Positions 12,197 through 29,323 of a stretch of 35,585 nucleotides of DNA are shown one piece after another. The DNA comes from Candidatus Woesearchaeota archaeon (GTDB lineage Archaea; Nanobdellota; Nanobdellia; Woesearchaeales; DSVV01). The position numbers and the translations under genes were made by a program. The notes beneath the pieces are model-generated. The model was not told the DNA's origin, did not search any database, and was given only the letters and a program-made list of their open reading frames with translations. Positions within the stretch are counted from its first letter, which is position 1; each line of letters starts with the position of its first letter. The stretch covers positions 1 to 35,585 of the forward strand of contig JACQSP010000090.1 of the NCBI GenBank assembly GCA_016205905.1, given 5' to 3'.

Positions 12197-15100
12197 ATGA
12201 TAAAAAAGAGAAGATTAATTTTTTTATTTTTGGCAGTACTATTATTAATAATATTAATAATCGTTAGCTCATCAGTTTTAGGGCTTCTTATTCCTCAATC
12301 AGGCAAACAAGTAGGTGATTTAAGCGTAATTGAATCTTACAAAGGCACATCACGATTGTTTTTAGAACTGTTTGTGGGTTGTTTGAGAGAGCAAGATGGA
12401 AATTATATTGGTGCGATACCACACTATAATTCAAGTTTGTTGTTAGACCAAAAAATAAATTTTCCAGATGAGAAGATATATCCAACACCTAAATTTAATA
12501 CGCCGTGGGGAACAGATGATGATAATGATGGTTTCTTAGAAGAAATAATTGGTAATGGTATTGAAGAGATTCCTAAATTAGAAGTTCCATGGCAGCAAGC
12601 ACCTAAATCATATTTGTATGAAGGCAATTGTTACTTGTTTGCTAATTATTGGCATCAATTCTGGAACAAAGGAGAAGAAGTGACACAAAACGATGAAGCA
12701 TTTAGTGTGTTAAAAGAAGATGAATTATATAATGATGATGGAGACAAAACAAAAATAAATGCTGTCGCTCAAATTGACGAATCCAAAGGTTTAGAAGCTC
12801 CGTTTAAAGGAGCGTATTATGTTAGTAGTGATGATTATTCTTATAACGTTTATTGGGAAGGCACTCAAGACAGTGAAAAAACTTGCGAAAATTATGGTGG
12901 ATACTATAAAGATGTAGGCGGCAATAAAGTCAAGAATTGTTGCGGCGACGATTATCTTTGGATAATGAACAGCGTCTATAATTTTGATGGTGATAAAGAA
13001 GGTAAGTCTGTAGATGAGCTTTGCTTGTATGGTTATGTTGACCCAGACACAGGCGAGCCATTAGTAGAATCTTCAGAATCACAAATATACCATACATCTG
13101 CAAAAGTAGGAAATCATCCTTACAGAAACCAAATCTATTGCACTCCTTTGGCAGCAGTTGGTGAAGTATCAGATATACATTACTCTTATGATATTAACAA
13201 TTATGATCCACAAAGCACAACAGAACAGAGAAGATTATTTGTTTATAATAAAGATTCACCAACAACAACAGCAACAGATGTGGGATTGTGGAAAACAGAT
13301 ACTTCTGCTAATTATTGTACACATTATTTTTCAGATAAAACAAATGGTGAAGTAAAAAAAGGAGATAACTTTGAATGGTTAACACCAGAAAAAGCAGGTG
13401 AGATAAATTATTTTGGCGTTGGTAATGGTGGTGCAACAGCTTTTGATAAAGACAACAAACCATCTATTATAAATAAAAAATTCATATTAAATCCTAAAGC
13501 CCCAGACTACATTTACGACGTCATGACCAAACAATTATCTGGTGATAATTACACAGATTCAGATGATTTCACTATTTGTAATTTGTTCTTAGGTGGCACA
13601 TGGACAGGTCATCATTGTTGTGGAAATAAGTATAAAGATGGAACAAAACTTCTTGAAAATTTTAATGATGAAGGAACAGCAAGCAGTATTGATACTGAAA
13701 AAGGAGAGCATTATGTTTTAACCAAGAATAGATTAAAAGCATACAGCCTAAGCGCAGAAATAGAAAGCGGTGAAGTATGGAAAGAGCCAAATAAAGCATG
13801 CTACCAAGGAGAAGCGATGGAAAGTGGCGAGATAAGGAATACCCCTAATAAGTTATCTATTATTAACAAAAAGGGTGAACTTAACTTGTGTTATAATATT
13901 GACGGTCAAATTGACGGTTTACAAGCCATAACTGGTAAAAGTTATGACTTTGAACAATTCAAAGAGAGTGATAATAATTATTTGTTTAATAATGATCCTC
14001 TTACAAAAGATAATGTGATTAGCTCTTGCGGCTCTTTCTATCTCAAAGCCGGCGATGATTTAGTTAGCACAAACAACCGTTTCGCCTACTGCTTCACAAA
14101 CAATACTTGGCTAAGTTTTGATATTATGCCAGAGGATTATGCAGAAGGTACAAACCCTGAGTTTGATATATTGGGAAGATATCCTGCAGAAGGCGATGTA
14201 TTGCACGAATCAGGCATTAATGATGATTTTAAACTTATTAAAAATATGAAAGTTAAATCTGACAAAGGCTGCTGTTTCCAAGGAGATTGTTGGAACGGAA
14301 ATAGTTGTACAGCTAACGGCGCTACAGTTATTGACAAATATGTTGATCCAAAAAAAGTTTATCTCTGCGCAAACGGAGAATGGACATCTGGCGAAGCATC
14401 ATTTAACTGGTACGACGAGAAATTTGCAGGCGAAACTGATCCTTCTCAAACAGGATTAGCATATTGTGTGGATAAATGGTCATGTGCCTGTCCTGAAAAA
14501 GATGCTTATAACTTAGGCGATGAAGATCAGCATGAGATAGACATTTGCGAAACTTATACACAACCTAATTCTCAGTGTACACGAGAGCCTGCGATGTTTA
14601 TCGGCGACAGATTCTGCGAGCCAGAATTTGTGAAAAAAGATGGCGATGGTTATGACTTTAAAGATGCTTCAACAATAACCTCATCACAATGGACATCCCG
14701 AACAACCTATCTCGCAACAGCATTGTTAACCCTCGCGCAACAAAAGAGTTCAAATGAATTTACTTTACAATGCGACACCCCAAAAAGTGTTCTTAACTTT
14801 TACAACCTTGACTTTGCAAAGGATTTGTTTGTGACAGAGCAGGATTATAATAATTTCTGTGCCCTAAAACTTAAAAATAGTGATGGTGATGAGGAGATTT
14901 ATTTAGGCACAACATTAAACCCGCAATTAAAATATGATGAAATACCCGAAGAATTATACCAAACCAAAGAAATCTCTGAGTTTGAGCAATGTACAGACGA
15001 CACTAATTGTATTCAATGCACAGAAGATGACACTAATTGCATTGGTTATGGCTGCTACAAAAAACCAGCTGCCAATGTTGGACAATGTGTTAAACAATGT

Positions 15101-15943
15101 TATGATGATAGTGATTGTGATGAAGGTGAAGAATGTTTTACAGCTGAAGAAGTGCCAGAAGGAGAGATTAAAATAGGTCTTTGCGCTCCAACCTCTGCAA
15201 AAGATGTAGACATGTTTAATATTGAAAATTTAGGAGAATTGTTTTACGGAACATCTGATACAACAGGATTATTAAACAATGAATTCTTGTTTAAATTAAC
15301 CAGCAAGAAATTTGCTGAAGATGAATGTAAAACTATTCTTGAAGGAACTAACCCGCAAAACGGAAATGGTGATGATTTCTTACTCTTTAAAACCTGTGAT
15401 AATGATAATATTGCTTTTAATAATTTTACAAAAGCAATGATATTTAGTAACAATTCGCAAGATGAGAACTTTTTGACTTTAACATACGACGAAGTGACTA
15501 ATAATAATTTAATTAATAATGTTAAGGATATAAAAGATTATTATAAATATGAGGATAACAAAGACAAAATCGCAGAGAAAAAGGAGATGGATATTATTAA
15601 CTCTATATCTGATTTAGATAAAATTTACTATGCACGAAAAGAAGATGGTGATAAAACAATTTTTGGTGTTCTTGAAAGAAAATCTGACCCTGATGCATCA
15701 GGCGATCCCTCTTCAAAGTTAAGATATTTCGCTGTTATTATGTACAAAAACATATTTACAGACAACAAGGTATGCACCGAGCTTGAAAAGACCTCGCCTC
15801 TGCTTTATTGCGGATACAAAGATTATGGCAATGGTGCAACAACGGTTGTAATTATCATTCCATCAACACCAGACTACGACGGCACAGAAGATGCAGTCAT
15901 GAATTATTGGCCAGACTTGACTGCGAAGATTAGATTGAAATAA
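12197..15943 (+). CDS. Giant Cys-rich exported/surface protein 1 (1248 aa)
   Basis: Uninterrupted 1248-codon ORF. Signal-anchor MIKKRRLIFLFLAVLLLIILIIV. Recurring CC motifs NCCGDDYLW, HHCCGNKY and KGCCFQGDCWNG. Cys-dense block QCTDDTNCIQCTEDDTNCIGYGC...QCYDDSDCDEGEEC. SD-like AGAGGA lies 5 nt upstream. Confidence 0.8.
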   Translation: MIKKRRLIFLFLAVLLLIILIIVSSSVLGLLIPQSGKQVGDLSVIESYKGTSRLFLELFVGCLREQDGNYIGAIPHYNSSLLLDQKINFPDEKIYPTPKFNTPWGTDDDNDGFLEEIIGNGIEEIPKLEVPWQQAPKSYLYEGNCYLFANYWHQFWNKGEEVTQNDEAFSVLKEDELYNDDGDKTKINAVAQIDESKGLEAPFKGAYYVSSDDYSYNVYWEGTQDSEKTCENYGGYYKDVGGNKVKNCCGDDYLWIMNSVYNFDGDKEGKSVDELCLYGYVDPDTGEPLVESSESQIYHTSAKVGNHPYRNQIYCTPLAAVGEVSDIHYSYDINNYDPQSTTEQRRLFVYNKDSPTTTATDVGLWKTDTSANYCTHYFSDKTNGEVKKGDNFEWLTPEKAGEINYFGVGNGGATAFDKDNKPSIINKKFILNPKAPDYIYDVMTKQLSGDNYTDSDDFTICNLFLGGTWTGHHCCGNKYKDGTKLLENFNDEGTASSIDTEKGEHYVLTKNRLKAYSLSAEIESGEVWKEPNKACYQGEAMESGEIRNTPNKLSIINKKGELNLCYNIDGQIDGLQAITGKSYDFEQFKESDNNYLFNNDPLTKDNVISSCGSFYLKAGDDLVSTNNRFAYCFTNNTWLSFDIMPEDYAEGTNPEFDILGRYPAEGDVLHESGINDDFKLIKNMKVKSDKGCCFQGDCWNGNSCTANGATVIDKYVDPKKVYLCANGEWTSGEASFNWYDEKFAGETDPSQTGLAYCVDKWSCACPEKDAYNLGDEDQHEIDICETYTQPNSQCTREPAMFIGDRFCEPEFVKKDGDGYDFKDASTITSSQWTSRTTYLATALLTLAQQKSSNEFTLQCDTPKSVLNFYNLDFAKDLFVTEQDYNNFCALKLKNSDGDEEIYLGTTLNPQLKYDEIPEELYQTKEISEFEQCTDDTNCIQCTEDDTNCIGYGCYKKPAANVGQCVKQCYDDSDCDEGEECFTAEEVPEGEIKIGLCAPTSAKDVDMFNIENLGELFYGTSDTTGLLNNEFLFKLTSKKFAEDECKTILEGTNPQNGNGDDFLLFKTCDNDNIAFNNFTKAMIFSNNSQDENFLTLTYDEVTNNNLINNVKDIKDYYKYEDNKDKIAEKKEMDIINSISDLDKIYYARKEDGDKTIFGVLERKSDPDASGDPSSKLRYFAVIMYKNIFTDNKVCTELEKTSPLLYCGYKDYGNGATTVVIIIPSTPDYDGTEDAVMNYWPDLTAKIRLK

Positions 15944-15974
15944 TACACACAATAATATTAATAGAATGAATATG

Positions 15975-16154
15975 ATATTTTTTTAGTTCCTGGGCGAAGC
16001 CACCCGTCTCATGAATAATAATAACTGTTTGTCGTAAGTCGTTTGTCGTTGGTCGTAAACAAAAAACGAAAAAAACAGCTGACGACTTACGACCTACGAC
16101 TAACGACTTACTCGCTCTTTGCTTCGCCTTTGAACTAAAAGAACTAAAAAATAC
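15975..16154. repeat. Family-1 variant palindromic element with GTCGTNN heptad arms
   Basis: Ends ATATTTTTTTAGTTC and GAACTAAAAAATAC are inverted. Contains GGGCGAAGCCACCCGTCTCATGAA. Left arm GTCGTAA GTCGTTT GTCGTTG GTCGTAA (16031-16058) pairs with CGACTTA CGACCTA CGACTAA CGACTTA (16083-16110), about 22/24. No TSD seen. Confidence 0.7.
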
Positions 16155-16184
16155 AATTAAACCATAAAAAATCAAAAATGCACC

Positions 16185-18482
16185 ATGAACAAAACATCCC
16201 AACTCGCAATCTTTATGATTCTTGGAATTGTGTCTGTTATTCTCATAGGTTTGGCATTATTCGGCATTTCTAGCTCGACAGAAAAAGGTTTTGTAACAAA
16301 ACAGTCCCAATTAGGAGAGCTGTTTATCGGCAAAGGTAAATATACTACTTACATTAAAAGCTGTCTTGACCAGGCAACAAAACAAGGTTTAGTATTAGCA
16401 GGTAAACAAGGCGGCGCAATTTATGATAATCAGACCATTGGCGGTAAACAGTCGCAGACAAGCAAATATTATGAATTAGATGGTATAAGAATACATTATT
16501 CATTGCTTTCTCCAACAATAATTAAATTGCCAGAATATCCTTATATTCCAAGTACAATAACATTAACATCTTCCCCTTTTCTAGCTCAAGAACCTTCTAT
16601 TTATGGTGTACCAACACCATTTATTAGTGTCATTAATAATCCGTTCATACCTTTATGCGACAGGTTTGGCCCAAACAATGACCCTAAATCTAATGTGCCT
16701 TACTGCGGCAATGCACCGTACATTTTTGACACTGAAAACATTAACGATCATAACTCTGTCCAAGAATATTTAGGTAAATACATCACGCAAAAAACAAACG
16801 AATGCATAAAACTCGAAACACTGCCAGAGCTTCAAGGATATAACATTATTAAACAAAATTTCAATGTAGACATTATTTTGACAGAATCATCTGTTGTTGC
16901 TAATCTTAACATGACGTTGGCATTATCAACACCGCAGTCAACATTAAAAGAAACCCTGCCGGTGATAGATATCAGCGGTATTTCAGTAGAGAAACATATC
17001 AGGCTAAAACACATATTTGAATTATTGGCAAGAATGAGGCAGGAAGATTCAAAGAATATATTTTTCGAGATAACTAATGCGCAGACATTAAAAACTTGCG
17101 GTCCAAACGAAAATTTGCAGTGCTTAAAGCCAGGAATGATTGTCTCAACCCAGAAATTACCAAATAATGATTATGTTGTCAAGATTACTGACACAGAATC
17201 ATTGATTGACGGAAAGGAGTTTAGTTATCAGGTAATCTTTCAGAATAGAAACCCAACTTTAGATTATTTAACTGCACCAAACTTAAATCCAGAATTTTCT
17301 GATTACAATGCTGTTCTTGTCGAGGGAATGACTCTTGTAATAGATCCTTATGGATATGATCCTGACGAGGATAATCATGAGCAGGGGTTTATGAAAGATT
17401 ATTATTATTACGAGGCAGTTGATGGTTATACTAAATTTGATGCAGACAAGGATAATGACGGAGTGATTGATTGTATTCCGACGACAAACAGCGGTTTAGA
17501 CGGAATAAAAGATTCATTAAAAAGCTGCCTTGTGCAAGACAAGCTGCCGTCAGCATTCAAGGGAAGAAAAGTAACTTATAAACTAACACAACATGATGCC
17601 GGCGAACATATTATCCGAGTAAAAGTCTGCGATAATACAAACAATCCCAAATGTGACTGGCAGGACGTAAAGATTTTTGTTATTCCATTGTTGGCTTTCG
17701 GTACAGATCAGAACGGAAATCCTTTTCCTTTTGATTCAACCAAAGATTACCAAATCTCGGGTTATCCAATTTATTCAACTAATCCAAGTGATACTGTAAC
17801 TTTAGGTGTAAAACAAACAATTACTTCAGAATCATTATTAACACCACAACCACAAGAACCAACTTTGCCTGACACAGAAAACACAGAATCACAACAAGGA
17901 TCAGAAACACAATCAGGAGATGATACTCAAGATTCATCACAATCTTCTCAACCTTCTTCACAACAAGGATATTCTTCGCCAACACAACCTTCAACACATT
18001 CATCCTCGCAACAAACCACACCAATAGTCACGCCAACTATACCTTACGATAACACCGACGTTGATATTCTTATTTCTAGAGCATTAAGCGGCACAAAACT
18101 GCCTTACGAAATGTATTACTTTGAAAACAAATATCTTATAGTGAAAAACACTATTAATAACCAAGGTCCAGAAGTTGTGCCAGAAACAGACGCATTTAGA
18201 CAGTTCGCTGAAAAAGGCGATAATGGAAAACCTAACTTATACATACAAAAAAAGATTTATGGTACCAACCAGCAAAGCGCACTTAACCAAAAGTTAGCTA
18301 CAGGAAAAAACCTGTTTTTTATTTACATCCCTGAGCCATGCACACAAGGAGCGTTCTTCCAAGGATACTGTCATTTTGGTGACAAATGTTATTATAATAT
18401 GAACATAGTTAATCATAATTTTCAAACAGCGTGGGACAATTGTCCTTCTGCAAAACTCTGTACAGAAACAGGGTGTAAATAA
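16185..18482 (+). CDS. Large exported protein 2 (765 aa) with pilin-type N-terminus, Ig-like/Ca-binding-like motifs and an S/T/Q/P linker
   Basis: MNKTSQLAIFMILGIVSVILIGLALFG. DPYGYDPDEDN and DKDNDGVID (DxDxDG-like). Low-complexity TPQPQEPTLPDTENTESQQGSETQSGDDTQDSSQSSQPSSQQGYSSPTQPSTHSSSQQTTP. Cys-rich C-terminus. Confidence 0.75.
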   Translation: MNKTSQLAIFMILGIVSVILIGLALFGISSSTEKGFVTKQSQLGELFIGKGKYTTYIKSCLDQATKQGLVLAGKQGGAIYDNQTIGGKQSQTSKYYELDGIRIHYSLLSPTIIKLPEYPYIPSTITLTSSPFLAQEPSIYGVPTPFISVINNPFIPLCDRFGPNNDPKSNVPYCGNAPYIFDTENINDHNSVQEYLGKYITQKTNECIKLETLPELQGYNIIKQNFNVDIILTESSVVANLNMTLALSTPQSTLKETLPVIDISGISVEKHIRLKHIFELLARMRQEDSKNIFFEITNAQTLKTCGPNENLQCLKPGMIVSTQKLPNNDYVVKITDTESLIDGKEFSYQVIFQNRNPTLDYLTAPNLNPEFSDYNAVLVEGMTLVIDPYGYDPDEDNHEQGFMKDYYYYEAVDGYTKFDADKDNDGVIDCIPTTNSGLDGIKDSLKSCLVQDKLPSAFKGRKVTYKLTQHDAGEHIIRVKVCDNTNNPKCDWQDVKIFVIPLLAFGTDQNGNPFPFDSTKDYQISGYPIYSTNPSDTVTLGVKQTITSESLLTPQPQEPTLPDTENTESQQGSETQSGDDTQDSSQSSQPSSQQGYSSPTQPSTHSSSQQTTPIVTPTIPYDNTDVDILISRALSGTKLPYEMYYFENKYLIVKNTINNQGPEVVPETDAFRQFAEKGDNGKPNLYIQKKIYGTNQQSALNQKLATGKNLFFIYIPEPCTQGAFFQGYCHFGDKCYYNMNIVNHNFQTAWDNCPSAKLCTETGCK

Positions 18483-18611
18483 AGTGTTAATATTAATGTG
18501 ATAGTGCAGGTAATTTCAATTGTACACATTTTGTGTACAACTCAACACCCTGTTCAGTTTCTCTTGCTTTTAACATATTTCAATAGTTTCTAGGATTAGT
18601 ACTATCAGTTA

Positions 18612-18811
18612 ATGTTCTGTTTTTTAATCTTATTTTCCGTTTTCAACTCGTTCTAGGGACGAAGTCCACGTCCACAAATAAAGGTAAGAAGTAAGAGGTT
18701 TGAGGTAAGAGGTACGATGATAACCTCGTAGTTGTTCCCTCTTACCTCCTACTTCTTACCTTTTACCTTTTTTTCATAAGACGTGTGGCTTCGCCTAGGA
18801 ACTAAAAAAAT
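18612..18811. repeat. Composite repeat: family-1 shell enclosing an inverted family-2 core; outer ends approximate
   Basis: Shell blocks CTAGGGACGAAGTCCACGTC (left) and GACGTGTGGCTTCGCCTAGGAACTAAAAA (right) are inverted. The interior 18679-18774 is a full family-2 element whose core (18704-18739) is the reverse complement of the other three. Confidence 0.7.
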
Positions 18812-18897
18812 AAAAAAAGCAATTACTTATTCCCTCGTAACCAGATAAAAACAACATATTTAAATAGTATTAATTAATAGATTAATAGTTATATACT

Positions 18898-21800
18898 ATG
18901 AAACATAAAAAAGAGCTGATGTTACTGATAGTTTTAACTATTTTTCTCTCTCTTGTTTATTCTTTTTCTTATATTATACCATTAGTTTATGCGCAAGATG
19001 ATTGGTGTTATTTTCCTAATTTAGTAGATAAACCATGCACACAAATATTACCTAACACTGAAATCGCGTCAGAAGCTGACTGCAAAGCACACAGTGGTGA
19101 AATATCTTATGAAAATGAATGCACAACTGGTTGTTGCTGTATTTGGAAACCTGTTGACACAAAGTATGAACAGCAAACAGGAACTACTAAAGGATATTGT
19201 AACAGTCTTCCTAGCTCTGTTTTTAATCCTTCTGTTTCAAGCCCTGCATTATGTACAAATTATTGCAATTCTTTAACTGCTCTTTCAGGCGATGAAGGTA
19301 AATTGCCAGCTTGCATGAATGGCATTGATGATGATAATGATGGTCTTACTGATTATCCTATTGATGAAGGATGCTCTGCTAAAGAAGATGATTCAGAAGA
19401 AGCAACAGCATCAGAAAAAGAATGCAGCGATCAGATAGATAATGATGGCGACGGAAAAATAGATTATTATGGATTTTATGAATCTTCTTATCAAGCACAG
19501 GATAATAAAAATTATGCAATATATCAAAACTTGCTTAAACAAGGCAAAACACCAGATCCATGCTGTACCAAATCCTTCGGCTTGTCTGAGAAATGCAGTT
19601 TTGACGAATGTAAGGTAGGAGAAAACAAAAAAGAAGATGGACTTTGCCAGTGCGGAAAAGAGGTTTGCGGTTTCCCTGAAGTTATTAATCCTTTATCTGA
19701 AATAGGCAATATATATGCAACTGGCAAATATTGTTGCGCAGGTAAATGTAGCATTGTACCATGCGGACCTTGTACTGAAGGAGAAACAACTTACGTGATA
19801 GATAATAGTGGTAAGACTACTTATACATGTGAAAATGGAATATTTAAAAAGGGAATAACTGAACCAATTGGCGCTCCAGAGCAATGTTTTGGCGCTGAGA
19901 TAGACGAAGATAATAATGGTGCTACCAATTGTGAGGATACAAAATGTTATACTTTAAAATGTTCAATGGATAAGGGCGCAACTAAAGATTCAGCAGGCAA
20001 CGTAATTATTCCTGATGGTTGTGGAAAAACCCCTAGTCTAAAAGTTTCCTACTTCGACGAGTCAGACGATTTTTGGAAATGCTGTTTCTCTATGGGTGGT
20101 AAAAGCAGAGTTAATGACTGCAAATATAATGACGGTGTTCCTGATACTTGCGGAGCTTGCGAATGTTTAAATCTCCACAAACCAGCGCAAAACCTTAAAG
20201 TACAGCATGTTTATGGCCAAGCAAAGTTAAACCTAAGCTTTTATTTTGAATGCCAAGAGCCAGAAGTTAAGTTAAAAGTGTTAAGATGCGACGGAACAGC
20301 AGGAAGTTGCGGTGTGAATAACGACGGCACAATTACTTTAGAAACAAGCACAAAGTTTGTTGATGTTTCTGATAATATGGATTGTTTATTAGAACAATTA
20401 GATGCAAATGGAAATCCAACGAAAATCGTTTGTTTCGGCGATAATGGTATCTTACAACCAGGACCAAAACAAAGCTTAGACGTTTCAGCAATATTTGACA
20501 CAAAAATCCTGCCAGAAAAAGATTATACTTATGTACTCGAATCTGTTTATCCTGACAAAGAAATAAGTTTTTCTAATGCTTTCAGCATGAAATCCGGATC
20601 AAAGATGTGCTTAAGCCATTCTGGTCATTTTTGTATAAGAAACAATTTAGATTATTTAGGTTCTGAAACAAAAAAATATTCTTGCGACGAGAATAATAAA
20701 CTTCAAGTTGAAAATTGTCAGGGCAGTTCAGGAGAATGGCCTGAAGAAGTTTGCATGGAAACAAAAGATACTAATGGTGTAATTGCCACAACCTGTGCTC
20801 TTAACACTCCTTGCATTTTTTGCGGTAACCCTTTTAATATGTATGGCAGTTTAAGTTTAAGCAGCAGCACATTATCAGTTCCAGAGGAATATTACGGATA
20901 CAAACCAACAACTAATGAAGAAAATTGCTATCTTAATTCCGTATGTTATTATGATTCAACCAATACAATTAAAGATGCGTATGATTCATGCAAGAATATA
21001 GGAAGTTGCTCTAATTATAAATCCGAAAATGCTTGTGCAAATTCACAAAATCCTACTGTAACCAATGTAAAGAACAAATGCCTGCCTTATAATTGTCAAT
21101 GGGTTGCCTTTGAAACTTTCGAGCCTTATGCAATAGAAGCAGGTATTTGCACAGACGCTACCACAAACTATAAAACCTGCGATATGTGCAACAAATTGAC
21201 GTCTAAATTATTTGGCGGTTGTAATCCTGATACTTGTAAAGATAATTTTAAATCAGAAACAACATTGTGTTATTTTGACCAAGTTAAAACCTCGTGCGTA
21301 GAATCTTCTAAAATAACCTGTTCTAATTATGACACAGAAGAAGATTGTCATGCGAGTTACGGTACTGATGATTATGGTGAAGCACATTCTGTCGAGGTAA
21401 ATGTCACTTATGACACTTCAGGAAAAAGAATCTGGGGTGACAATTCTATTATTGAACCCAGCCATGACCTTCTTGATTTTAAAATATGTAAATGGAAAGA
21501 TGATACAGATGCCTGTATAAGAGACGCTAACGGCGACGGCAAGTATGATGTTGCTGGCGAGAAAGCTATTGATATCACACCACCGCAGACAGAAGTTATT
21601 GCGCCGTCAAATGTTGGTCAGATAGAATTAAAATTTGCCATCAATGATCCTACTTTTGAAGGAAGGCCCAGTTCAGGTGAGTTAAAGACATATTATTGTT
21701 TCCCTGACAATACACCATTGCCTAAAGAAATAATAGACCAATATAAAAATCAAACCAATTTCAAAGATGGCACAACTGAAGAAAACATTAATTATTGTTA

Positions 21801-24800
21801 TCCAGATACTTTATTTGTTCCAGATGCAGGAAGCACATCAAAAATACTTTCCATGGAAAGCGGCCAACAAACAATGTTTTTCTATTCAGAAGATGGGGCG
21901 CATAATCTTGAACCTGTTCAATCATTCACGTTTAACATTGATAACAAACCACCAGTAATAACAATTACTCCTTATCTAACACTTGACCAGTCTTATCCGT
22001 TTGAGCAAAGCAGTGTATTATTATCAGTAGAACTCGACGAGAAAGCAACATGTTACGATATTTTTGAAGATTATGACGGCATTAAAAAAATTAATTATGA
22101 GTCAGGTAACTCTTTCCAGGCAGTTTATGATAATTTGGAAGACGGAACTTATCTGTACACAGTTGTATGCGAAGATAAATTGGGCAACAAGATTAATAAA
22201 ACCGCTTCTGTAAAGATTGATGCTGATCAGGAAATACAAGGTTCTTTGCCTGAAGGAGTAATAGATTATAGTCCTGTAAACTTAGAGATTAAGACGACAC
22301 ATAAAAGTCCAAATGATGATTGCAGAATTGGTACAGGCGATACTTTTGATGTGTTAAGCGGTTTTGCCTCAAAAACACAGGCAGACATATTTACTAAATA
22401 TTCTACACCATTCTCTTTGACAGAGAACAAAGTTTACGAGTTCAAGGTAATGTGCAAATTTTCAGGAAAATTGCATAAAGACGAAATCCAGTTTGTCTAC
22501 GACACAACCCCGCCAAAAACCTCATTGACAGATTCTGCTGGAAACACGTTTGATATTTCTAAATGGTACAATAAACAGGAAGCCTCACAATCAGTTTACT
22601 TAAAATGCAATGACGAGCCAGAATATGGTTTTGGATGCAAAGAGACAAAATATTGCATAGAAACAGGTTCAGCCAAATGTAATATTAATTTTGATGCAAG
22701 TTCCACTCCTGCTGTAGGCACTATATATGAATCATACTCAGCAGTTAAAATCTCGCCCACACCACAGCCGCAATGGCTATGCTATCAATCAAAAGAAGAT
22801 ACATACCCCTCAGATTTAAGTTCATACAGTTCATATGGTGGCAGTATTGAAGAAAAACAGTGTGTTAAACTGTTAATAGATTCTAATTCTGGCCCAACAG
22901 TAGAGGTTCCATTATTAAAACCACACACAGAAATGATTAATGCATACGAATATTTCACACCATTGTTCACAATAAACGGCGAAGTTGTTGACAGCGATGC
23001 AGAAGCAAACCCACCACCTCAAAACAAGCTTACTATAGACGTTTATCCTATCACAGAGGATTATTTAAAATCATTAGCGAAGCAAATTGATTCTCAGCAA
23101 GCAGGGCAAGCCCAAGCACCACCACAGCTAAAAGCAACTCAAACATTTACTCTCAATGCAAACAATCAATTCTCACAAGAATTAACCCTTTCATCTGGCC
23201 TTAACAAGATTGTGCTGAGTGCCACTGACCGTTCAGGAAAAACTTCAGGCATTTATGAATATTATATCATGGTTTCAAATTTTGACGGCAATTTGTTTGA
23301 AGTTATCTCTCCGCCAAAAGGTGTTTCTGAGACAAAAGAGTTTGATTTAATTATAGAAACAACTAAAGACCTTCCAGCAGCAGAAAGCTGCGCCTTATCA
23401 ACAAATCCAAAAGTCGGTTTCACGTCACAGATGCAGAAGATTGAAGGCAAGAAATTCAAGAATCACATTAATTTTCCAGGTATGAAAGAAGAAACATATT
23501 ATACTGTTTATGTCAAGTGTACATTTCCAGGTGGTGTGTTTGACATCAAGGAAATTGATTTAATCTGGGACACAACACCGCCGTCAATAGAAAATAGTTT
23601 TATTCAGCCCAGCGACGGAAAAAGTCCGCCGTCAATTATTGAGCCGCCGCTTGAAACAAACCTTACTATAATAACTAATGACAAATCAAGATGTAAGTTC
23701 TCAGAGAAAGAAAACTCAACTTATTTCACAATGTCGCTTTTCAAAGAGTATGAAACACAAAACTTGAGTTATGTGAACGAGCATCCCTTAACCAATCTTG
23801 AGGACAAGAAAAATTATACCTATTATGTCAAGTGCGACAATGGCCCGACAGAGCCTGCTTCGATGCATATTTCTAATGAGGCAAAAATAACTTTCTCAGT
23901 TGACACGTCGCAGTTCACAGGCTTGGAACTGGTTAAGCCTGCCCAATTTATAGGTTACACATCTGTTAATTTTGAGCTTCATACAACAAAAAAATCAACC
24001 GAATGCACTTTTGGCCCAACACAAGAATTAGTTGGCCAATATTCTATGAAAACAGTTACAGAAGGAGTTGATGCATATAAAGTACATACCGGCGGTCCAT
24101 TAACATTAATCGAAGGAGAGCATGACTTTTATTTCGAGTGCCTTACTGCAGCAGAAGGGCCAATCTCAGAAGATTTTGTATTCACTGTTGATTTATCGCC
24201 GCCAGTTGTTCAGGTAAAAACACAGCCATACACGAGCTCATTAAACACATTGACAGCAAACTGGGAAGCTTATGATAATAATACACAAATTAAAGGATAT
24301 AATTATTCAATAGGCACTAAACAAGGTATTGCAGATATATTTGATTGGGCAGTAACTGACAGTGAAAAGAAAACCATACACAATCTAAATTTAAATAATG
24401 AGACCACATACTGGTGGAATGTTAAAGCAATAAACTCTGTTGGTTTAGTCAGCACAATAGCAAGCAACAGCACTTATGTTGATACAACTTATGATCCTGG
24501 TTTTGAAGTTAATATCACTAACATTAATGTTTGCAAAGATGATGTTCTCGACAGTGATGAGACAGATATAGATTGCGGCGGAAGCTGTCAAAAATGCAGT
24601 AATGGCAAAAACTGCAAATCTGAAACAGATTGTATCGGCGGTAAATGCGAAAGTGGAATATGTATTAGTGCAAGCTGTGAAGACAATATACTTAATCAAT
24701 TAGAAACCGATATAGATTGCGGTGGTTCTTGCGCTTCTTGTCAGGAAGGAATGAATTGTAACATAAACAGCGATTGCAGTACGGGATTTTGTAAATCAGG

Positions 24801-25818
24801 ATTTTGTACATTGCCAAGCTGTGATGATAATGTTCAAAACGGACAGGAGCAGGGCATAGATTGTGGCGGCGCTTGTCCAAATATTTGTGAAATTATACCT
24901 TCATATGATGAAGAGGAAACTTGTGATGATGGAATTAAAAATCAAGATGAAACAGGAATAGATTGTGGTGGATCATGTAAAAAATGTGAAACACCTCCAC
25001 AAAAAACAGAACCAACAGACGAGCCTTCAACATGGTGGATATGGTTAATTGTGCTCCTTATTATCGCAGGTATTGGCGGCGGCGGGTATTATTATTATAA
25101 TAATTATATTTTCAAGGCAAAATATCCTAACTCACAACAAAGAATGCAGTCAAGACCTTTATCACCATTCTCACAACCACAACAGCAATCATCAGTACAA
25201 ACCAGAATGCCACAATCAAAACCATTGGGCATAAGGCAGACATTTAACAGATTCTTTAAACCTTTGCCAAGAGAGTTTAGAGAAAAACGTGCACAGGAAA
25301 AACTTAAACAAAGAAGTAAACTATTTGGCGCATTTGAAAGTGCAGGCGAACAAAAAGAAAAATCAGAAATAAAACAAAACTTAACCAGTGCAAGAACAGA
25401 TATGAAAAAAGAAGAACCCAAAACCCCACAACAACCACCTATACAAAAACAAACACCAATCCAACCTAAAATCCAGCCCAAACTTCAGATTTCAGAAGCA
25501 TTTAAACCTGAAACAGGTGCAGCTAAAGAAGAAATAAAACTTAAACAAACAGAGTTAAAAGAAATAAAAGAGACAAAGCCACAACAAAAACAAGAAACTA
25601 AAAAACAGCCTGCACAAAAAGAACAAGCACCTAAACTAAAGGCAAAAGAAATCCTCAAACCTAAAAAGAAAGCAGTTGAGCAGCTGACTAAACCCTCAAC
25701 CAAAGCCCCTTCAGCTATTGAAAAACTTTCAAAGCTGAAAAAAGAATCAGCTATGTCAAAACTAGGCAAAGGCAAGGATGCATTTAAACAATTATCAAAC
25801 ATTGCAAAGAAGAGGTAA
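18898..25818 (+). CDS. Giant surface protein 3 (2306 aa): Sec signal, Cys-rich ectodomain with repeated modules, TM anchor and low-complexity cytoplasmic tail
   Basis: Signal ...IIPLVYA|QDDW. DxDxDG-like motifs (IDDDNDGLTDY, IDNDGDGKIDYY, RDANGDGKYD). Repeated modules begin at ITPPQTEV, NKPPVITI, TTPPKTSL, TTPPSIEN and LSPPVVQV. FN3-like LTANWEAYD...YWWNVKAINSVGL. Four DCGGxC repeats. TM WWIWLIVLLIIAGIGGGGYYYY (from 25033). K/Q/P/E-rich tail of about 240 aa. Confidence 0.85.
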   Translation: MKHKKELMLLIVLTIFLSLVYSFSYIIPLVYAQDDWCYFPNLVDKPCTQILPNTEIASEADCKAHSGEISYENECTTGCCCIWKPVDTKYEQQTGTTKGYCNSLPSSVFNPSVSSPALCTNYCNSLTALSGDEGKLPACMNGIDDDNDGLTDYPIDEGCSAKEDDSEEATASEKECSDQIDNDGDGKIDYYGFYESSYQAQDNKNYAIYQNLLKQGKTPDPCCTKSFGLSEKCSFDECKVGENKKEDGLCQCGKEVCGFPEVINPLSEIGNIYATGKYCCAGKCSIVPCGPCTEGETTYVIDNSGKTTYTCENGIFKKGITEPIGAPEQCFGAEIDEDNNGATNCEDTKCYTLKCSMDKGATKDSAGNVIIPDGCGKTPSLKVSYFDESDDFWKCCFSMGGKSRVNDCKYNDGVPDTCGACECLNLHKPAQNLKVQHVYGQAKLNLSFYFECQEPEVKLKVLRCDGTAGSCGVNNDGTITLETSTKFVDVSDNMDCLLEQLDANGNPTKIVCFGDNGILQPGPKQSLDVSAIFDTKILPEKDYTYVLESVYPDKEISFSNAFSMKSGSKMCLSHSGHFCIRNNLDYLGSETKKYSCDENNKLQVENCQGSSGEWPEEVCMETKDTNGVIATTCALNTPCIFCGNPFNMYGSLSLSSSTLSVPEEYYGYKPTTNEENCYLNSVCYYDSTNTIKDAYDSCKNIGSCSNYKSENACANSQNPTVTNVKNKCLPYNCQWVAFETFEPYAIEAGICTDATTNYKTCDMCNKLTSKLFGGCNPDTCKDNFKSETTLCYFDQVKTSCVESSKITCSNYDTEEDCHASYGTDDYGEAHSVEVNVTYDTSGKRIWGDNSIIEPSHDLLDFKICKWKDDTDACIRDANGDGKYDVAGEKAIDITPPQTEVIAPSNVGQIELKFAINDPTFEGRPSSGELKTYYCFPDNTPLPKEIIDQYKNQTNFKDGTTEENINYCYPDTLFVPDAGSTSKILSMESGQQTMFFYSEDGAHNLEPVQSFTFNIDNKPPVITITPYLTLDQSYPFEQSSVLLSVELDEKATCYDIFEDYDGIKKINYESGNSFQAVYDNLEDGTYLYTVVCEDKLGNKINKTASVKIDADQEIQGSLPEGVIDYSPVNLEIKTTHKSPNDDCRIGTGDTFDVLSGFASKTQADIFTKYSTPFSLTENKVYEFKVMCKFSGKLHKDEIQFVYDTTPPKTSLTDSAGNTFDISKWYNKQEASQSVYLKCNDEPEYGFGCKETKYCIETGSAKCNINFDASSTPAVGTIYESYSAVKISPTPQPQWLCYQSKEDTYPSDLSSYSSYGGSIEEKQCVKLLIDSNSGPTVEVPLLKPHTEMINAYEYFTPLFTINGEVVDSDAEANPPPQNKLTIDVYPITEDYLKSLAKQIDSQQAGQAQAPPQLKATQTFTLNANNQFSQELTLSSGLNKIVLSATDRSGKTSGIYEYYIMVSNFDGNLFEVISPPKGVSETKEFDLIIETTKDLPAAESCALSTNPKVGFTSQMQKIEGKKFKNHINFPGMKEETYYTVYVKCTFPGGVFDIKEIDLIWDTTPPSIENSFIQPSDGKSPPSIIEPPLETNLTIITNDKSRCKFSEKENSTYFTMSLFKEYETQNLSYVNEHPLTNLEDKKNYTYYVKCDNGPTEPASMHISNEAKITFSVDTSQFTGLELVKPAQFIGYTSVNFELHTTKKSTECTFGPTQELVGQYSMKTVTEGVDAYKVHTGGPLTLIEGEHDFYFECLTAAEGPISEDFVFTVDLSPPVVQVKTQPYTSSLNTLTANWEAYDNNTQIKGYNYSIGTKQGIADIFDWAVTDSEKKTIHNLNLNNETTYWWNVKAINSVGLVSTIASNSTYVDTTYDPGFEVNITNINVCKDDVLDSDETDIDCGGSCQKCSNGKNCKSETDCIGGKCESGICISASCEDNILNQLETDIDCGGSCASCQEGMNCNINSDCSTGFCKSGFCTLPSCDDNVQNGQEQGIDCGGACPNICEIIPSYDEEETCDDGIKNQDETGIDCGGSCKKCETPPQKTEPTDEPSTWWIWLIVLLIIAGIGGGGYYYYNNYIFKAKYPNSQQRMQSRPLSPFSQPQQQSSVQTRMPQSKPLGIRQTFNRFFKPLPREFREKRAQEKLKQRSKLFGAFESAGEQKEKSEIKQNLTSARTDMKKEEPKTPQQPPIQKQTPIQPKIQPKLQISEAFKPETGAAKEEIKLKQTELKEIKETKPQQKQETKKQPAQKEQAPKLKAKEILKPKKKAVEQLTKPSTKAPSAIEKLSKLKKESAMSKLGKGKDAFKQLSNIAKKR

Positions 25819-25955: not shown

Positions 25956-26486
25956 ATGAAACTATTTACTAATTTATTAACATCAAAAACAAGCCACATT
26001 AACTCAAAGAAGTCGCAGGTTGAACAAATGTTTTTTTACATTTTGGCCTTGTTTGTTATAGGCACAATGCTGTTATTAGGCATTAAATATATCGGCAAGA
26101 TTGTCAAGCAGGTTGAATCAGTTGACCTTGTTGAGTTCAAAACAAGTTTACAAAATGATGTGGATGTTTTAGTCACAAAATATGGCAGCTGGAAAAAAGC
26201 AACATATACTGTGCCTAAAGAAGTCAAGAAGGTATGTTTTTTTACAATAGATGCTTATAAAAATGGTTGTCCTTCGCTTCCAGACCTTGACGCTGTAATG
26301 TGCGATGCATGGCAGTCTGGCACACAAAACGTAATGACTGTTCCGTTTGTTTTGGAATCACCAATTAATCTCACTAAAATGGTTGTTGATGAAACTAATG
26401 GCTACAAATGTTTCGAGGTTACAGACAGGAAAATCACTTTAAAAATTACAGGTATAGGTAATGGCGTGAAGATTTCAGAGGCGTGA
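25956..26486 (+). CDS. Class III signal (prepilin-like) protein, 176 aa
   Basis: ...INSKKS|QVEQMFFYILALFVIGTMLLLGI shows a basic stretch, a small residue, polar/acidic +1..+3, then about 20 hydrophobic residues. SD AGGTGA lies 6 nt upstream. Confidence 0.6.
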   Translation: MKLFTNLLTSKTSHINSKKSQVEQMFFYILALFVIGTMLLLGIKYIGKIVKQVESVDLVEFKTSLQNDVDVLVTKYGSWKKATYTVPKEVKKVCFFTIDAYKNGCPSLPDLDAVMCDAWQSGTQNVMTVPFVLESPINLTKMVVDETNGYKCFEVTDRKITLKITGIGNGVKISEA

Positions 26487-26488: not shown

Positions 26489-26609
26489 AAAAAGGTAAGA
26501 AAGTAAAGATTAAACAGTTAAAAGTAAGAGTAGGGGGTAAGGGGGAACAACTACGATGTTATCATCGTACCTCTTACCTTATACCTCTTACTTTTTACTT
26601 CTTACCTTT
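26489..26609. repeat. Family-2 palindromic element
   Basis: Core GGGAACAACTACGATGTTATCATCGTACCTCTTACC (26543-26578). Starts 3 nt after the stop of 25956..26486. The left arm carries a short insertion (GATTAAACAGTTAA). Confidence 0.75.
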
Positions 26610-29216: not shown

Positions 29217-29323
29217 GCTAAATCATAAGATTATTGTTAAATATACATAATCTTTATATATTAGACTTAACAAATAATTATAAAAGATATAATAATAAAA
29301 ACAAACCAAACGAGGTGGAGCAA

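What the first reader, a model, noticed from the sequence alone, without database searches (positions are those of the whole stretch)
12197..25818. Three giant Cys-rich exported proteins directly upstream of the pilin-like cassette: candidate adhesin or host-contact module
Three same-strand ORFs of 1248, 765 and 2306 aa occupy 13.6 kb, separated only by repeat-filled spacers, and are followed immediately by the pilin-like genes. All have export signals. All carry dozens of cysteines, including recurring CC dipeptides (NCCGDDY, HHCCGNKY, GCCFQGDC; GCCCIWKP, DPCCTKS, KYCCAGKC, WKCCFSMG), and DxDxDG-type acidic motifs (IDDDNDGLTDY, IDNDGDGKIDYY, DKDNDGVID). I could assign no enzymatic domain. Devoting more than a third of a window that also holds core replication and transcription genes to such proteins suggests cell-cell or host attachment. 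That functional reading is inference.
Basis: partly seen in the sequence, partly recalled or inferred. Interest (0 to 1): 0.7.

Follow-up and report, generated by a model that had tools for sequence, protein, structure and literature searches.

The report
Pilin-linked giant surface-protein operon (Woesearchaeota)
Three huge exported proteins of this tiny groundwater archaeon belong to a conserved nine-gene cluster with pilin-like proteins that probably builds a cell-surface attachment structure, a lineage-specific version of known archaeal pilus loci built from protein families with no described relatives.

Summary
The three ORFs are real genes at the stated coordinates: A 1248 aa, B 765 aa, C 2306 aa. 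The window is a whole contig of a Candidatus Woesearchaeota MAG.

A and C are Cys-rich (42 and 110 Cys), and 38/42 and 99/110 of those Cys are invariant across orthologs. B is not Cys-rich (16 Cys, no CC).

The three genes and the five downstream pilin-like genes form one block, A-B-C-p1-p2-p3-p4-p5. A divergent small membrane gene, u2, sits upstream. Gene order is kept in about a dozen species-level Woesearchaeota/Nanobdellota genomes, down to 23-30% identity, with overlapping junctions in several, which suggests an operon.

B is itself a giant prepilin-like protein. It has the motif [KR][GAS]|Q followed by a hydrophobic helix, and a predicted roughly 70-residue N-terminal helix. A and C have ordinary Sec-type signals. 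C is a type-I membrane protein with a Cys-rich distal region, Ca-binding-type acidic repeats, about 8 Ig-like domains, four Cys-knot repeats, a TM anchor and a cytoplasmic tail.

One lineage carries a candidate A24 prepilin peptidase next to A. No assembly ATPase or platform gene lies within 10 kb of any locus.

A and B match no Pfam, NCBIfam or PDB family. The architecture matches the known plan of archaeal type IV pilus loci, so this is a new variant of a known kind. The adhesion or host-contact function is inferred, not shown.

The parts
11201..11590 (-). u2: small membrane protein, divergent from A. It has a cytoplasmic N-terminal motif (MTNxxxYIKKELxKGFSKxEIKxxLxKAxW) followed by one TM segment. 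It is the conserved neighbour of the block.
   Evidence: Orthologs lie next to A in L004, L007, L011, L013, L014, L017, L018 and L019. No family match.
12197..15943 (+). A: 1248-aa Sec-exported protein with no TM anchor. It has 42 Cys (38 invariant), an invariant TWTGHHCCG motif and a conserved C-terminus YWxDLTAKLR. Family and fold are unknown.
   Evidence: No Pfam, NCBIfam or PDB match. Only 36 clusters at 50% identity match among 1.84 billion proteins. The AF2 model failed, pLDDT 35.7.
15976..16151 (.). A-B spacer repeats: hairpin at 16034-16111 built from GTTTGTC/ACGACTT heptamers, flanked by GCGAAGC/GCTTCGC inverted copies.
   Evidence: RNA fold -32.4 kcal/mol, z -5.5. Absent from the orthologous junctions, which overlap or are 1-10 nt apart in L004, L007 and L008.
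16185..18482 (+). B: 765-aa giant prepilin-like (modular pilin) protein. Class III-type signal MNKTS|QLAIFMILG...; N-terminal helices res 3-49 and 52-74; conserved core to about res 500-540 with two beta-sandwich modules and an IDPYGYDPDED loop; S/T/Q/P linker 547-619; small 6-Cys C-terminal domain.
   Evidence: Motif conserved in 14 of the 15 orthologs whose N-terminus is present. Q6 and F10 are invariant. AF2 pLDDT 71.6, mostly 80-95 over res 50-540. Foldseek returned only weak cadherin and Ig-like hits. No Pfam or PDB match. The C-terminal extension is modular across the family.
18676..18818 (.). B-C spacer palindromic element (AGGTAAG/CCTCTTA heptamers). Copies of the same element lie at 5768-5847 and 26529-26609.
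   Evidence: RNA fold -45.5 kcal/mol, z -8.2.
18898..25818 (+). C: 2306-aa type-I membrane protein with a Sec signal (res 1-32) and 110 Cys (99 invariant).
18994..21537 (+). C distal region (res 33-880): very Cys-rich, with CCC/CC motifs. It contains two MopE/TSP3-like acidic double-disulfide (Ca-binding-type) repeats at res 130-190 (19285-19467).
   Evidence: NF033662 at 24.5 bits, below its cut-off. Res 130-190 align at 45-57% identity to repeats in many Myxococcota and other proteins. This is the least conserved extracellular part, 31-44% identity.
21550..24507 (+). C stalk (res 885-1870): about 8 Ig-like/fn3-like domains. Each begins with a D-x-x-P-P strand and most have one invariant Cys pair 33-47 residues apart.
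   Evidence: Big_13 hits in 8/11 orthologs, best E 6.7e-8; the window copy scores 23.4 bits against a cut-off of 27; fn3 in one ortholog. PP motifs. Cys pairs.
24532..24987 (+). C membrane-proximal repeats: four Cys-knot repeats of 34-48 aa with the signature C-x-D-x3-N-x2-E-x-x-I-D-C-G-G-x-C-x2-C.
   Evidence: Direct DNA repeat family D2 with spacings of 144, 144 and 102 nt. Sequence. Cys invariant.
25030..25815 (+). C TM anchor (res 2045-2067) and a K/Q/P/E-rich, low-complexity cytoplasmic tail of about 240 aa with a small conserved basic patch (K2135, R2139, F2146).
   Evidence: The tail is the least conserved part, 22-33% identity.
25956..26486 (+). p1: prepilin-like protein, KKS|QVEQMFFYILALFVIG, 4 invariant Cys.
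26652..27749 (+). p2: large (365 aa) prepilin-like protein, KKG|VIEIQFNWIFIFVVG, 6 invariant Cys.
   Evidence: No PDB match.
28045..28584 (+). p3: prepilin-like protein, KHA|QLKIGESILVLIIFF, 2 invariant Cys.
28641..29216 (+). p4: prepilin-like protein, NKA|QTEIMGLMIIVVIV, 6 Cys (5 invariant).
29324..29599 (+). p5: 91-aa prepilin-like protein, MFKKG|DLSLNMIIVAIIALLVL, 6 Cys. It is the smallest and best conserved subunit (72%) and the candidate major subunit. The true start is M31 of the listed TTG ORF (29234-29599).

Best explanation
The three ORFs are the large subunits of a conserved nine-gene cell-surface module found only in Woesearchaeota and close relatives. The module is u2 <- -> A-B-C-p1-p2-p3-p4-p5, and it is of the type-IV-filament (archaeal type IV pilus-like) kind.

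Proposed mechanism:
1. Six products (B and p1-p5) are made as prepilins with class III signals. An A24-type prepilin peptidase cuts them after [KR][GAS].
2. Their hydrophobic N-terminal helices assemble into a short fibre or tip complex. In this reading p5 is the small major-type subunit, p1-p4 are minor subunits, and B is a giant modular pilin that displays beta-sandwich modules and a lineage-variable C-terminal module.
3. A is exported by Sec without an anchor and rides on this complex, playing a PilY1-like role without any detectable homology to PilY1.
4. C is exported by Sec and stays in the membrane through its C-terminal helix. It forms a long, disulfide- and probably Ca2+-stiffened Ig-domain stalk whose Cys-rich distal end reaches outwards, and whose cytoplasmic tail links to the cell interior.
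5. Together they mediate attachment to a partner cell or a surface.

What is shown: gene reality, the conserved block, the two kinds of signal, the domain make-up of C, the pilin-like N-terminal helix of B, and conservation of the cysteines.

What is inferred: processing by the peptidase, filament assembly by an ATPase and platform encoded elsewhere, the roles assigned to p5, A and C, and adhesion or host contact as the function.
For: - Orthologs of A, B and C exist only in Woesearchaeota-type MAGs.
- Gene order A-B-C-p1..p5 is conserved in L001-L016 and L019. The flanks differ: MCM-TBP in L004, radical SAM in L007 and L008, the ribosomal operon and SecY in L023.
- Junctions overlap or are 1-26 nt apart in L004, L007 and L008, which points to an operon.
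- The class III motif [KR][GAS]|Q plus about 20 hydrophobic residues is conserved in B, p1, p3 and p4. Variant motifs are conserved in p2 and p5. A and C have short Sec-type h-regions with AxA-like cleavage sites.
- B's AF2 model has an N-terminal helix spanning res 3-74 followed by globular domains.
- Between the pilin-like families, only the N-termini align, as is usual among pilins.
- In L008, L015 and L016 a 6-TM protein divergent from A hits Peptidase_A24 across the whole profile (E 3e-5 and 1e-3). It carries both Asp motifs, YEDIRxSRIxN and AGDGKLF.
- C has Ig-like, fn3 and TSP3/MopE-type repeats and a C-terminal TM anchor.
- Even numbers of invariant Cys in p1-p3 and p5, and in nearly all of A and C, fit extracellular disulfides.
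- Makarova et al. 2016 (PMC4858521) describe archaeal T4P loci with this same composition. They list one large protein with a C-terminal TM anchor, one large signal-peptide protein ('adhesin or minor pilin') and several small minor pilins, almost all with conserved cysteines. They also describe pilin sets served in trans by ATPase/TadC modules.
- Preprint 10.64898/2026.04.22.720090 reports large Ig-rich adhesin-like proteins in many archaeal type 4 filament (TFF) loci.
Against: - No secretion ATPase or platform gene lies within 10 kb of the block. No Walker A motif was found in the ORFs of the 11 loci scanned, and no such Pfam family is recorded for the loci.
- One paper states that T4P components are missing from DPANN genomes (10.1101/2020.05.14.094862).
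- No curated pilin model (Pfam or NCBIfam) matches B or p1-p5.
- The peptidase hit is below Pfam's threshold, is seen next to the block in one lineage only, and is not in this window.
- The unusually high conservation of p1-p5 is atypical for pilins and adhesins.
- There is no structural or family evidence at all for A.
- There are no expression data.
Confidence: 0.55

Rival explanations
1. Envelope scaffold. C is the S-layer-like wall protein of these cells, anchored by its C-terminal helix. A, B and the small pilin-like proteins are envelope-associated partners, for example priming or anchoring the layer. They are not an adhesive appendage.
For: - A C-terminal TM anchor on a roughly 2000-aa extracellular domain is the classical archaeal S-layer topology (established knowledge). 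Makarova et al. call the equivalent T4P-locus protein 'S-layer-like'.
- The block is syntenic with housekeeping genes (MCM, TBP, RNase P; ribosomal operon/SecY in L023).
- It evolves as slowly as those genes.
- Only one copy was seen per contig.
Against: - 4.8% Cys with 99 invariant Cys is atypical for S-layer proteins.
- C has only 14 N-x-S/T sequons in 2306 aa.
- No S-layer family hit was found.
- The family is small and confined to part of the Woesearchaeota: 10 full-length C orthologs and 14 species loci.
- This reading does not explain six prepilin-type signals or the adjacent A24-like peptidase.
Confidence: 0.2
2. A class III-signal complex that forms no filament, or a pseudopilus. B and p1-p5 are processed like pilins but form a membrane-anchored, bindosome-like or T2SS-pseudopilus-like assembly. 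Its job would be to display, export or hold A (and C) for substrate capture rather than cell-cell adhesion.
For: - Five small or medium pilin-like proteins with one large one (p2, 365 aa) mirror the five-pseudopilin sets of bacterial T2SS and T4P tip complexes (established knowledge; sizes).
- A has a Sec signal, no anchor and a strongly conserved C-terminus.
- No filament ATPase lies nearby.
Against: - No substrate-binding, enzymatic or transporter domain was detected in any of the nine proteins.
- No ABC transporter or secretion ATPase is in the neighbourhood.
- Archaeal pseudopilus-type secretion has no experimental precedent, to my knowledge.
Confidence: 0.15
3. Mere adjacency. A, B and C are three unrelated giant surface proteins that happen to lie next to a pilin cassette, with no functional linkage.
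For: In this window the genes are separated by spacers of 137-415 nt that carry their own TATA-like boxes and hairpins. A Bro-N gene is inserted between B and C in close relatives.
Against: - The order is conserved down to 23-30% identity with changing flanks.
- Coding junctions overlap in L004, L007 and L008.
- B shares the prepilin signal of p1, p3 and p4.
Confidence: 0.03

Closest known systems
Archaeal type IV pilus loci with large accessory proteins. Examples are Thermoproteales subclades 4B/4G in Makarova, Koonin & Albers 2016 (PMC4858521) and TFF systems with Ig-rich adhesin-like proteins (preprint 10.64898/2026.04.22.720090).
   Same: The parts list is the same: several small class III-signal proteins; one large protein with a C-terminal TM helix ('S-layer-like'); one large signal-peptide protein ('adhesin or minor pilin'); conserved cysteines in almost all components; pilin sets that can be served in trans by ATPase/TadC.
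   Different: - No ATPase, platform or MinD gene lies in or near the locus.
- There are three giants instead of two.
- None of the proteins matches a described family.
- The host lineage is Woesearchaeota (DPANN).
- Sequence conservation is unusually high, whereas the 4G systems are described as extremely fast evolving.
Methanococcus maripaludis Epd pilus (archaeal TFF 'system 1', also reported in a few DPANN).
   Same: It is a multi-gene cluster with several minor pilins, a very small major pilin, an adhesin-like protein, a class III-signal protein carrying a binding domain, and a dedicated peptidase, EpdA. The +1 Gln after [KR]G is recalled from memory of EpdE.
   Different: The Epd cluster includes its ATPase and two platform genes. 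No sequence similarity was detected. No giant Cys-rich proteins are described for it.
Bacterial T4aP minor-pilin/PilY1 tip complex (FimU-PilVWXE + PilY1) and T2SS GspH-K pseudopilus tip (established knowledge).
   Same: Both have about five pilin-like subunits, including one large one, plus a Sec-exported non-pilin protein of about 1100-1250 aa with Ca-binding-type motifs encoded in the same operon. This is a functional analogy for A.
   Different: A has no PilY1/DUF2341/beta-propeller match. The domain of life differs. There is no homology beyond the N-terminal pilin helices.
Modular type IV pilins of Streptococcus sanguinis (PilB, PilC; PMC8179133).
   Same: A pilin module is fused to bulky adhesive modules, so the fibre itself carries the adhesin (title and abstract seen). 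B has the same logic: an N-terminal pilin helix, beta-sandwich modules and a swappable C-terminal module.
   Different: B's modules are not vWA or lectin domains and match nothing known. B is archaeal, and its size ranges from 470 to 1339 aa across the family.
Type IV pili of episymbiotic Saccharibacteria (PMC12206443) and of Nanoarchaeota (PMC6142677).
   Same: These are ultra-small symbionts in which T4P-type structures are implicated in host binding.
   Different: Those systems have identified machinery genes and show diversifying surface components. Here the machinery is unseen and the components are strongly conserved.

Membership tests
Type IV pilin-like (class III signal peptide) proteins: B, p1-p5 | A short, positively charged N-terminus; then [KR]-[G/A/S] at -2/-1; then about 20 hydrophobic residues directly after the cleavage site. 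| tested here: met
   The motif table across orthologs shows it in B (14 of the 15 orthologs whose N-terminus is present) and in p1-p5 in all loci. The pattern-based scan used was of my own design, not FlaFind or SignalP. Q6 and F10 of B are invariant in 22 sequences.
Type IV pilin-like (class III signal peptide) proteins: B, p1-p5 | A long N-terminal alpha-helix (alpha1, about 50 residues) followed by a globular domain. | tested here: met
   Tested for B only. The AF2 model has helices 3-49 and 52-74, then a well-predicted globular region.
Type IV pilin-like (class III signal peptide) proteins: B, p1-p5 | A match to a curated pilin, archaellin or class III-signal model. | tested here: not met
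   No Pfam or NCBIfam pilin model reaches E<=0.1-1 for the window proteins. A Pfam scan of 31 orthologs found none either. Pilin models are known to be insensitive, so this weakens the membership claim but does not exclude it.
Type IV filament system (whole machine) | A cognate prepilin (class III signal) peptidase of family A24. | tested here: inconclusive
   A 365-aa 6-TM gene divergent from A is present in L008, L015 and L016. It scores PF01478 E 3.1e-5 and 1.2e-3 (24.8 and 19.6 bits against a cut-off of 26.5) over profile positions 4-102 of 104. Both Asp motifs are present. There is no NCBIfam or PDB support. It is absent from this window and the other loci.
Type IV filament system (whole machine) | A secretion ATPase (FlaI/PilB type) and a polytopic platform protein (FlaJ/TadC). 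| tested here: not met
   None lies within 10 kb. No Walker A motif was found in the ORFs of the 11 loci scanned. No T2SE or T2SF Pfam family is recorded for the loci, nor among the window proteins scanned. Presence in the rest of the genome could not be tested with these tools.
PilY1-type tip adhesin (for A) | A PilY1 beta-propeller, DUF2341 or vWA domain. | tested here: not met
   No Pfam hit for A or any of its 6 homologs at E<=0.01 or E<=0.1. A profile search against PDB was empty. The analogy is functional only.
Archaeal S-layer protein (for C) | A large extracellular domain with a C-terminal membrane anchor. | tested here: met
   Sec-type signal, TM at res 2045-2067, then a cytoplasmic tail.
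Archaeal S-layer protein (for C) | A match to an S-layer domain family; low Cys content; heavy glycosylation; very high abundance; lattice formation. | tested here: not met
   No S-layer family hit in 11 orthologs. Cys is 4.8%. There are 14 sequons. Abundance and lattice formation cannot be tested here.
Bacterial Ig-like (Big_13) / fn3 repeat adhesin stalk (for C) | Repeated beta-sandwich domains of about 100 aa that match the family models. | tested here: inconclusive
   The window copy scores 23.4 bits against a cut-off of 27. Eight of 11 orthologs hit Big_13, best E 6.7e-8, and one hits fn3. The periodic D-x-x-P-P starts and Cys pairs support about 8 domains. No structure model was made for C.
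MopE/TSP3-like acidic double-disulfide (Ca-binding type) repeat (for the DxDxDG motifs) | C-x-D-x-D-N-D-G-D-G-x-x-D-type repeat that matches NF033662, PF11617 or PF18884. | tested here: inconclusive
   NF033662 scores 24.5 bits against a cut-off of 41. TSP3_bac hits one ortholog. C res 130-190 align at 45-57% identity to many copies in repeat proteins that carry these domains. Metal binding itself was not tested.

The most novel reading that the evidence does not exclude
The block encodes a surface machine of a previously undescribed kind, specific to Woesearchaeota. Six prepilin-like subunits and three giant disulfide- or metal-rich proteins (two of them, A and the B core, with folds unrelated to anything known) would assemble without a dedicated pilus ATPase or platform. 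It would be the structure through which these DPANN cells dock onto, and perhaps exchange material with, their partners. In this reading A, with its invariant HHCC centre, acts as a metal-dependent effector rather than a passive adhesin.
Probability: 0.15. Interest if true: 0.8.

Novelty: new variant of a known kind. Interest (0 to 1): 0.5.

Why it matters
Woesearchaeota are abundant, uncultured DPANN archaea that are thought to depend on partner cells, and the molecules that would make such contact are unknown.

This work defines a concrete candidate apparatus of nine genes. It is conserved at housekeeping level across species and can be traced as a unit. It contains three protein families with no annotation (A, the B core, and the distal region of C) and a giant modular pilin.

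The block gives cultivation, cryo-ET, proteomic and metatranscriptomic studies specific targets. It also bears on conflicting statements in the literature about whether DPANN have type IV pilus systems. If the assembly genes turn out to be absent from these genomes, the way these prepilin-like proteins are used would itself be new.

Tried and rejected
- AF2 on A (res 49-1248, 7-sequence alignment) gave pLDDT 35.7. The model is unusable, so no fold search was run on it.
- Sequence and profile searches against PDB for A, B, C and p2, and a single-sequence search with the candidate peptidase, found nothing significant.
- Pfam and NCBIfam scans of all members of the A and B families found nothing.
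- Foldseek with the B model against PDB and BFVD returned only generic cadherin and Ig-like beta-sandwich matches, with TM <= 0.12 on the query. I therefore do not call B a cadherin.
- hhalign between the pilin-like families aligned only the N-terminal helices.
- Motif checks found no CxxCH or HExxH in A, B or C. I therefore dropped the multihaem/electron-transfer and zinc-protease ideas.
- A BLASTP self-comparison of C did not resolve its repeats.
- The sigma-70 promoter and terminator scan is not informative for an archaeon.
- Rfam and tRNA scans of the window were empty, so the spacer hairpins are not known RNAs.
- Literature searches found no paper describing this cluster.
- I rejected the idea that the ORFs are artefacts, because orthologs exist.
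- I rejected the idea that the three proteins are paralogs of each other. The all-against-all BLASTP listed no window A, B or C hit to another family.

Full report
**Origin and reality of the genes.** The window is a whole 35,585-nt contig of a Candidatus Woesearchaeota MAG; ORF A is NCBI HY636_04350. It carries archaeal core genes: MCM with an intein, TBP, RNase P p30 and ThiI. All quoted CC and DxDxDG motifs are present. Each ORF has orthologs, so they are genes and not chance ORFs.

**Cysteines.** A has 42 Cys (3.4%) and C has 110 (4.8%). B has only 16 (2.1%) and no CC, so 'all carry dozens of cysteines' is wrong for B. The other proteins in the window have about 1-2.7% Cys. The cysteines are under selection. 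In A, 38/42 are invariant in a 7-sequence alignment, against 13.5% of other residues. In C, 99/110 are invariant in an 11-sequence alignment, against 8.2%. None of the three contains CxxCH or HExxH.

**The conserved unit is larger than the finding.**
- Contigs that encode orthologs show the same order: A (877-1387 aa; 2013 aa in L020), B (500-1124 aa), C (2053-2405 aa; up to about 2890 aa in the most distant loci), then five small genes of about 160, 360, 170-200, 180-200 and 90 aa.
- BLASTP confirms one-to-one orthology of all eight genes between the window and L004/L009, L007 and L008. The L008 values are C 29.5%, A 23%, B 32% and p1-p5 30-38%.
- A scan of one genome per GTDB species with the B profile found 14 loci. 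All are Woesearchaeota/Nanobdellota-type MAGs. Four labelled 'Methanosarcinales' are probably mislabelled. One is the closed 1.84-Mb chromosome OY970338.1.
- The order A-B-C-p1... is kept in L010-L016 and L019. L020-L023 keep B-C, with a larger or absent A.
- The flanks differ. L004 has MCM-TBP-ThiI-RNase P, L007 and L008 have radical-SAM genes, and L023 has the ribosomal operon with SecY. The block itself is therefore the conserved unit.
- A small divergent gene, u2 (window 11201-11590, minus strand), is also conserved next to A.
- In L004, L007 and L008 the coding junctions overlap or are 1-26 nt apart, except the B-C gap (64-215 nt), which indicates an operon.
- The long, hairpin-filled spacers of this window are lineage-specific insertions. 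So is the Bro-N gene that lies between B and C in L001, L010 and L013.

**Two kinds of export signal.**
- Across orthologs, B begins [KR]-[G/A/S]|Q-[LIVM]-[ATS]-[ILM]-F followed by about 20 hydrophobic residues. Q6 and F10 are invariant in 22 sequences.
- The same K-[S/A]|Q signature opens p1, p3 and p4. p2 has K-[G/A]|x-I-E-x-Q-F-N-W, and p5 has K-K-G|D/Q-x-S-L-N.
- This is the class III (prepilin) signal pattern of archaeal pilins, by established knowledge. My scan was a simple pattern-plus-hydropathy test.
- A and C have short h-regions and AxA-like sites typical of Sec signal peptides. This is inferred by inspection.
- The AF2 model of B (22-sequence alignment, mean pLDDT 71.6, mostly 80-95 over res 50-540) shows helices 3-49 and 52-74, as in a pilin alpha1. 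These are followed by an alpha/beta region, two beta-sandwich modules (about 318-500), a disordered S/T/Q/P linker (547-619) and a small Cys-containing C-terminal domain.
- Foldseek found only weak cadherin and Ig-type matches.
- The C-terminal extension of B is modular across the family. It is absent in the 470-525-aa forms. It is 230-340 aa with 6-8 Cys in the window type. It is 530-780 aa with 32-46 Cys in others. B is therefore a giant modular pilin-like protein and not a third Cys-rich protein.
- Profile-profile comparison aligns the pilin-like families to each other only at their N-termini.

**A candidate peptidase.** In L008, L015 and L016 the gene divergent from A encodes a 365-aa, 6-TM protein. 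It hits Pfam Peptidase_A24 over the whole profile, but just below threshold (E 3.1e-5 and 1.2e-3). It also has a faint Arc_PepC_II hit. Both catalytic Asp contexts are present: YEDIRxSRIxN and AGDGKLF. NCBIfam and PDB searches gave no support. The gene is not in this window. This is independent but limited evidence that the block's products are prepilin-type substrates.

**Architecture of C.**
- Sec signal at res 1-32.
- A distal region (33-880) packed with invariant Cys, including CCC and CC.
- Two acidic repeats at 130-190 that align at 45-57% identity to MopE/TSP3-type repeats in many proteins. NF033662 is sub-threshold.
- About eight Ig-like/fn3-like domains at 885-1870. Each starts with D-x-x-P-P, and most have an invariant Cys pair. 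Big_13 hits 8/11 orthologs, best E 6.7e-8.
- Four Cys-knot repeats of 34-48 aa at 1879-2030.
- A TM helix at 2045-2067, then a cytoplasmic K/Q/P-rich tail of about 240 aa.
- The membrane-proximal stalk is the best conserved part (46-57%). The distal region (31-44%) and the tail (22-33%) are the least conserved.

**A remains opaque.**
- No Pfam, NCBIfam or PDB match for it or for its family profile.
- Only 36 clusters at 50% identity match it among 1.84 billion representatives. Those with names are all Woesearchaeota hypotheticals.
- The AF2 model failed (pLDDT 35.7).
- Notable invariant features are TWTGHHCCG, CCGDDYxWIMN, GCCFxGDCW, WxCACP and the C-terminus YWxDLTAKLR.

**What is missing.** No secretion ATPase or platform gene lies within 10 kb of the block. 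No Walker A motif was found in the ORFs of the 11 loci scanned, and no such Pfam family is recorded for the loci. Whole genomes could not be scanned. The literature conflicts. He et al. state that T4P components are missing in DPANN. Jarett et al. and the 2026 TFF census report them in Nanoarchaeota and a few DPANN. Makarova et al. show that pilin sets can be served in trans by ATPase/TadC modules.

**Conservation.** Between the window and the L004/L009 genome, p1-p5 are 56-72% identical, C is 48%, B is 44% and A is 42%. The comparison genes are MCM 57%, ThiI 54% and RNase P p30 45%. This is housekeeping-level constraint. It fits a multi-subunit structure with many internal contacts and argues against rapidly diversifying host-specific adhesins.

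**Interpretation.**
- The parts list matches the general plan of archaeal type IV pilus loci described by Makarova et al. 2016. It has several small class III-signal proteins. It has one large protein with a C-terminal TM anchor, one large signal-peptide protein, and conserved cysteines throughout.
- It also matches the Ig-rich adhesin-like proteins noted in many archaeal TFF loci.
- My best reading (confidence about 0.55) is a Woesearchaeota-specific type-IV-filament-like surface module. B is a modular pilin, p1-p5 are the small subunits, A is a non-anchored partner in a PilY1-like role without homology to PilY1, and C is a membrane-anchored stalk.
- Adhesion to a partner cell or a surface is the most plausible function, but it is inferred only.
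- The rivals are an S-layer-like envelope role for C (0.2), a non-filament bindosome or pseudopilus-type complex (0.15) and mere adjacency (0.03).

**Novelty and scores.** No paper describing this cluster was found. The kind of system is known. The variant is new in five ways:
- three giants, one of them a 765-aa pilin;
- three unannotated protein families;
- no linked assembly genes;
- unusual conservation;
- a DPANN lineage for which contact structures are unknown.

I rate it a new variant of a known kind, with interest 0.5.

Noticed in passing
window 5768-5847, 18676-18772, 26529-26609 (partial copy 1236-1268); separate hairpin 16034-16111: A family of long, near-perfect palindromic elements built from heptamer repeats (AGGTAAG / CCTCTTA) with a shared core GGTAAGAGG..ACGATGATAAC..CCTCTTACC. 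They sit in intergenic spacers. RNA fold z-scores are -4 to -8. No Rfam match. The orthologous junctions in L004, L007 and L008 are tight, so these look like MITE-like or terminator-like insertions specific to this lineage.
   Followed up: partly
window 1273-4743 (-): The MCM helicase gene is interrupted by an intein with a LAGLIDADG homing-endonuclease domain. The same arrangement is in L004.
   Followed up: no
window 8780-9412 and 9670-10380 (+): An AbiEi-like antitoxin / AbiEii-like nucleotidyltransferase toxin pair lies between RNase P p30 and the surface module. The AbiEii hit is just below the Pfam cut-off.
   Followed up: no
window 7256-7768 (+); L001 16356-17189 (-); L010 10036-10869 (-); L013 13200-14027 (+): Bro-N domain genes. 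In close and distant relatives one is inserted between B and C inside the operon (Pfam Bro-N call in L001-L003; L010 and L013 recognised by a similar N-terminal sequence). In this window a Bro-N gene sits upstream instead. This suggests a mobile gene that repeatedly lands in this region.
   Followed up: partly
window 33529-34419 and 34517-35482 (+): Two paralogous 296- and 321-aa proteins (28% identity) with N-terminal hydrophobic anchors. The second starts ...TKKS|QMMAFTLVGVLIML, the same class III-like motif as B. They may be further pilin-like proteins 4 kb downstream of p5. No family match.
   Followed up: partly
window 11689-12024 (-); L013 5118-5861; L014 3102-3869 and neighbours: u3 has a lipobox-like signal (LIFLTGC). 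In L013, a bacterial-type prolipoprotein diacylglyceryl transferase gene lies just upstream of the block (Lgt, PF01790, E 4e-56). L014 has an ORF with an Lgt-like N-terminus at the same position. Several lipobox proteins lie alongside. This is unusual for archaea.
   Followed up: partly
L008 2523-3620 (-), L015 1835-2932 (-), L016 5946-7043 (-): A candidate A24 prepilin peptidase, divergent from gene A. It has no Pfam hit on record for that gene, and it has a long extra C-terminal half.
   Followed up: yes
L017 11443-19960: In this genome the position of C holds unrelated genes. One is a 1345-aa subtilase (Peptidase_S8, E 5e-37) with PKD and MopE-type motifs. The block is therefore not invariant.
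   Followed up: no
L010 11489-18212: The C ortholog of the RIFCSPHIGHO2_02_FULL_33_21 genome is split into two overlapping ORFs (533 and 1772 aa). This is either a frameshift or an assembly error.
   Followed up: no
L013, L014, L015, L017 record titles: Four MAGs labelled 'uncultured Methanosarcinales archaeon' carry this block, which is otherwise Woesearchaeota-specific. Their taxonomic labels are probably wrong.
   Followed up: no
window 6728-6866: A 51-nt tandem repeat (2.7 copies, 77% matches) lies inside the 3' part of the ThiI-like gene. The L004 ortholog is about 90 aa shorter.
   Followed up: no
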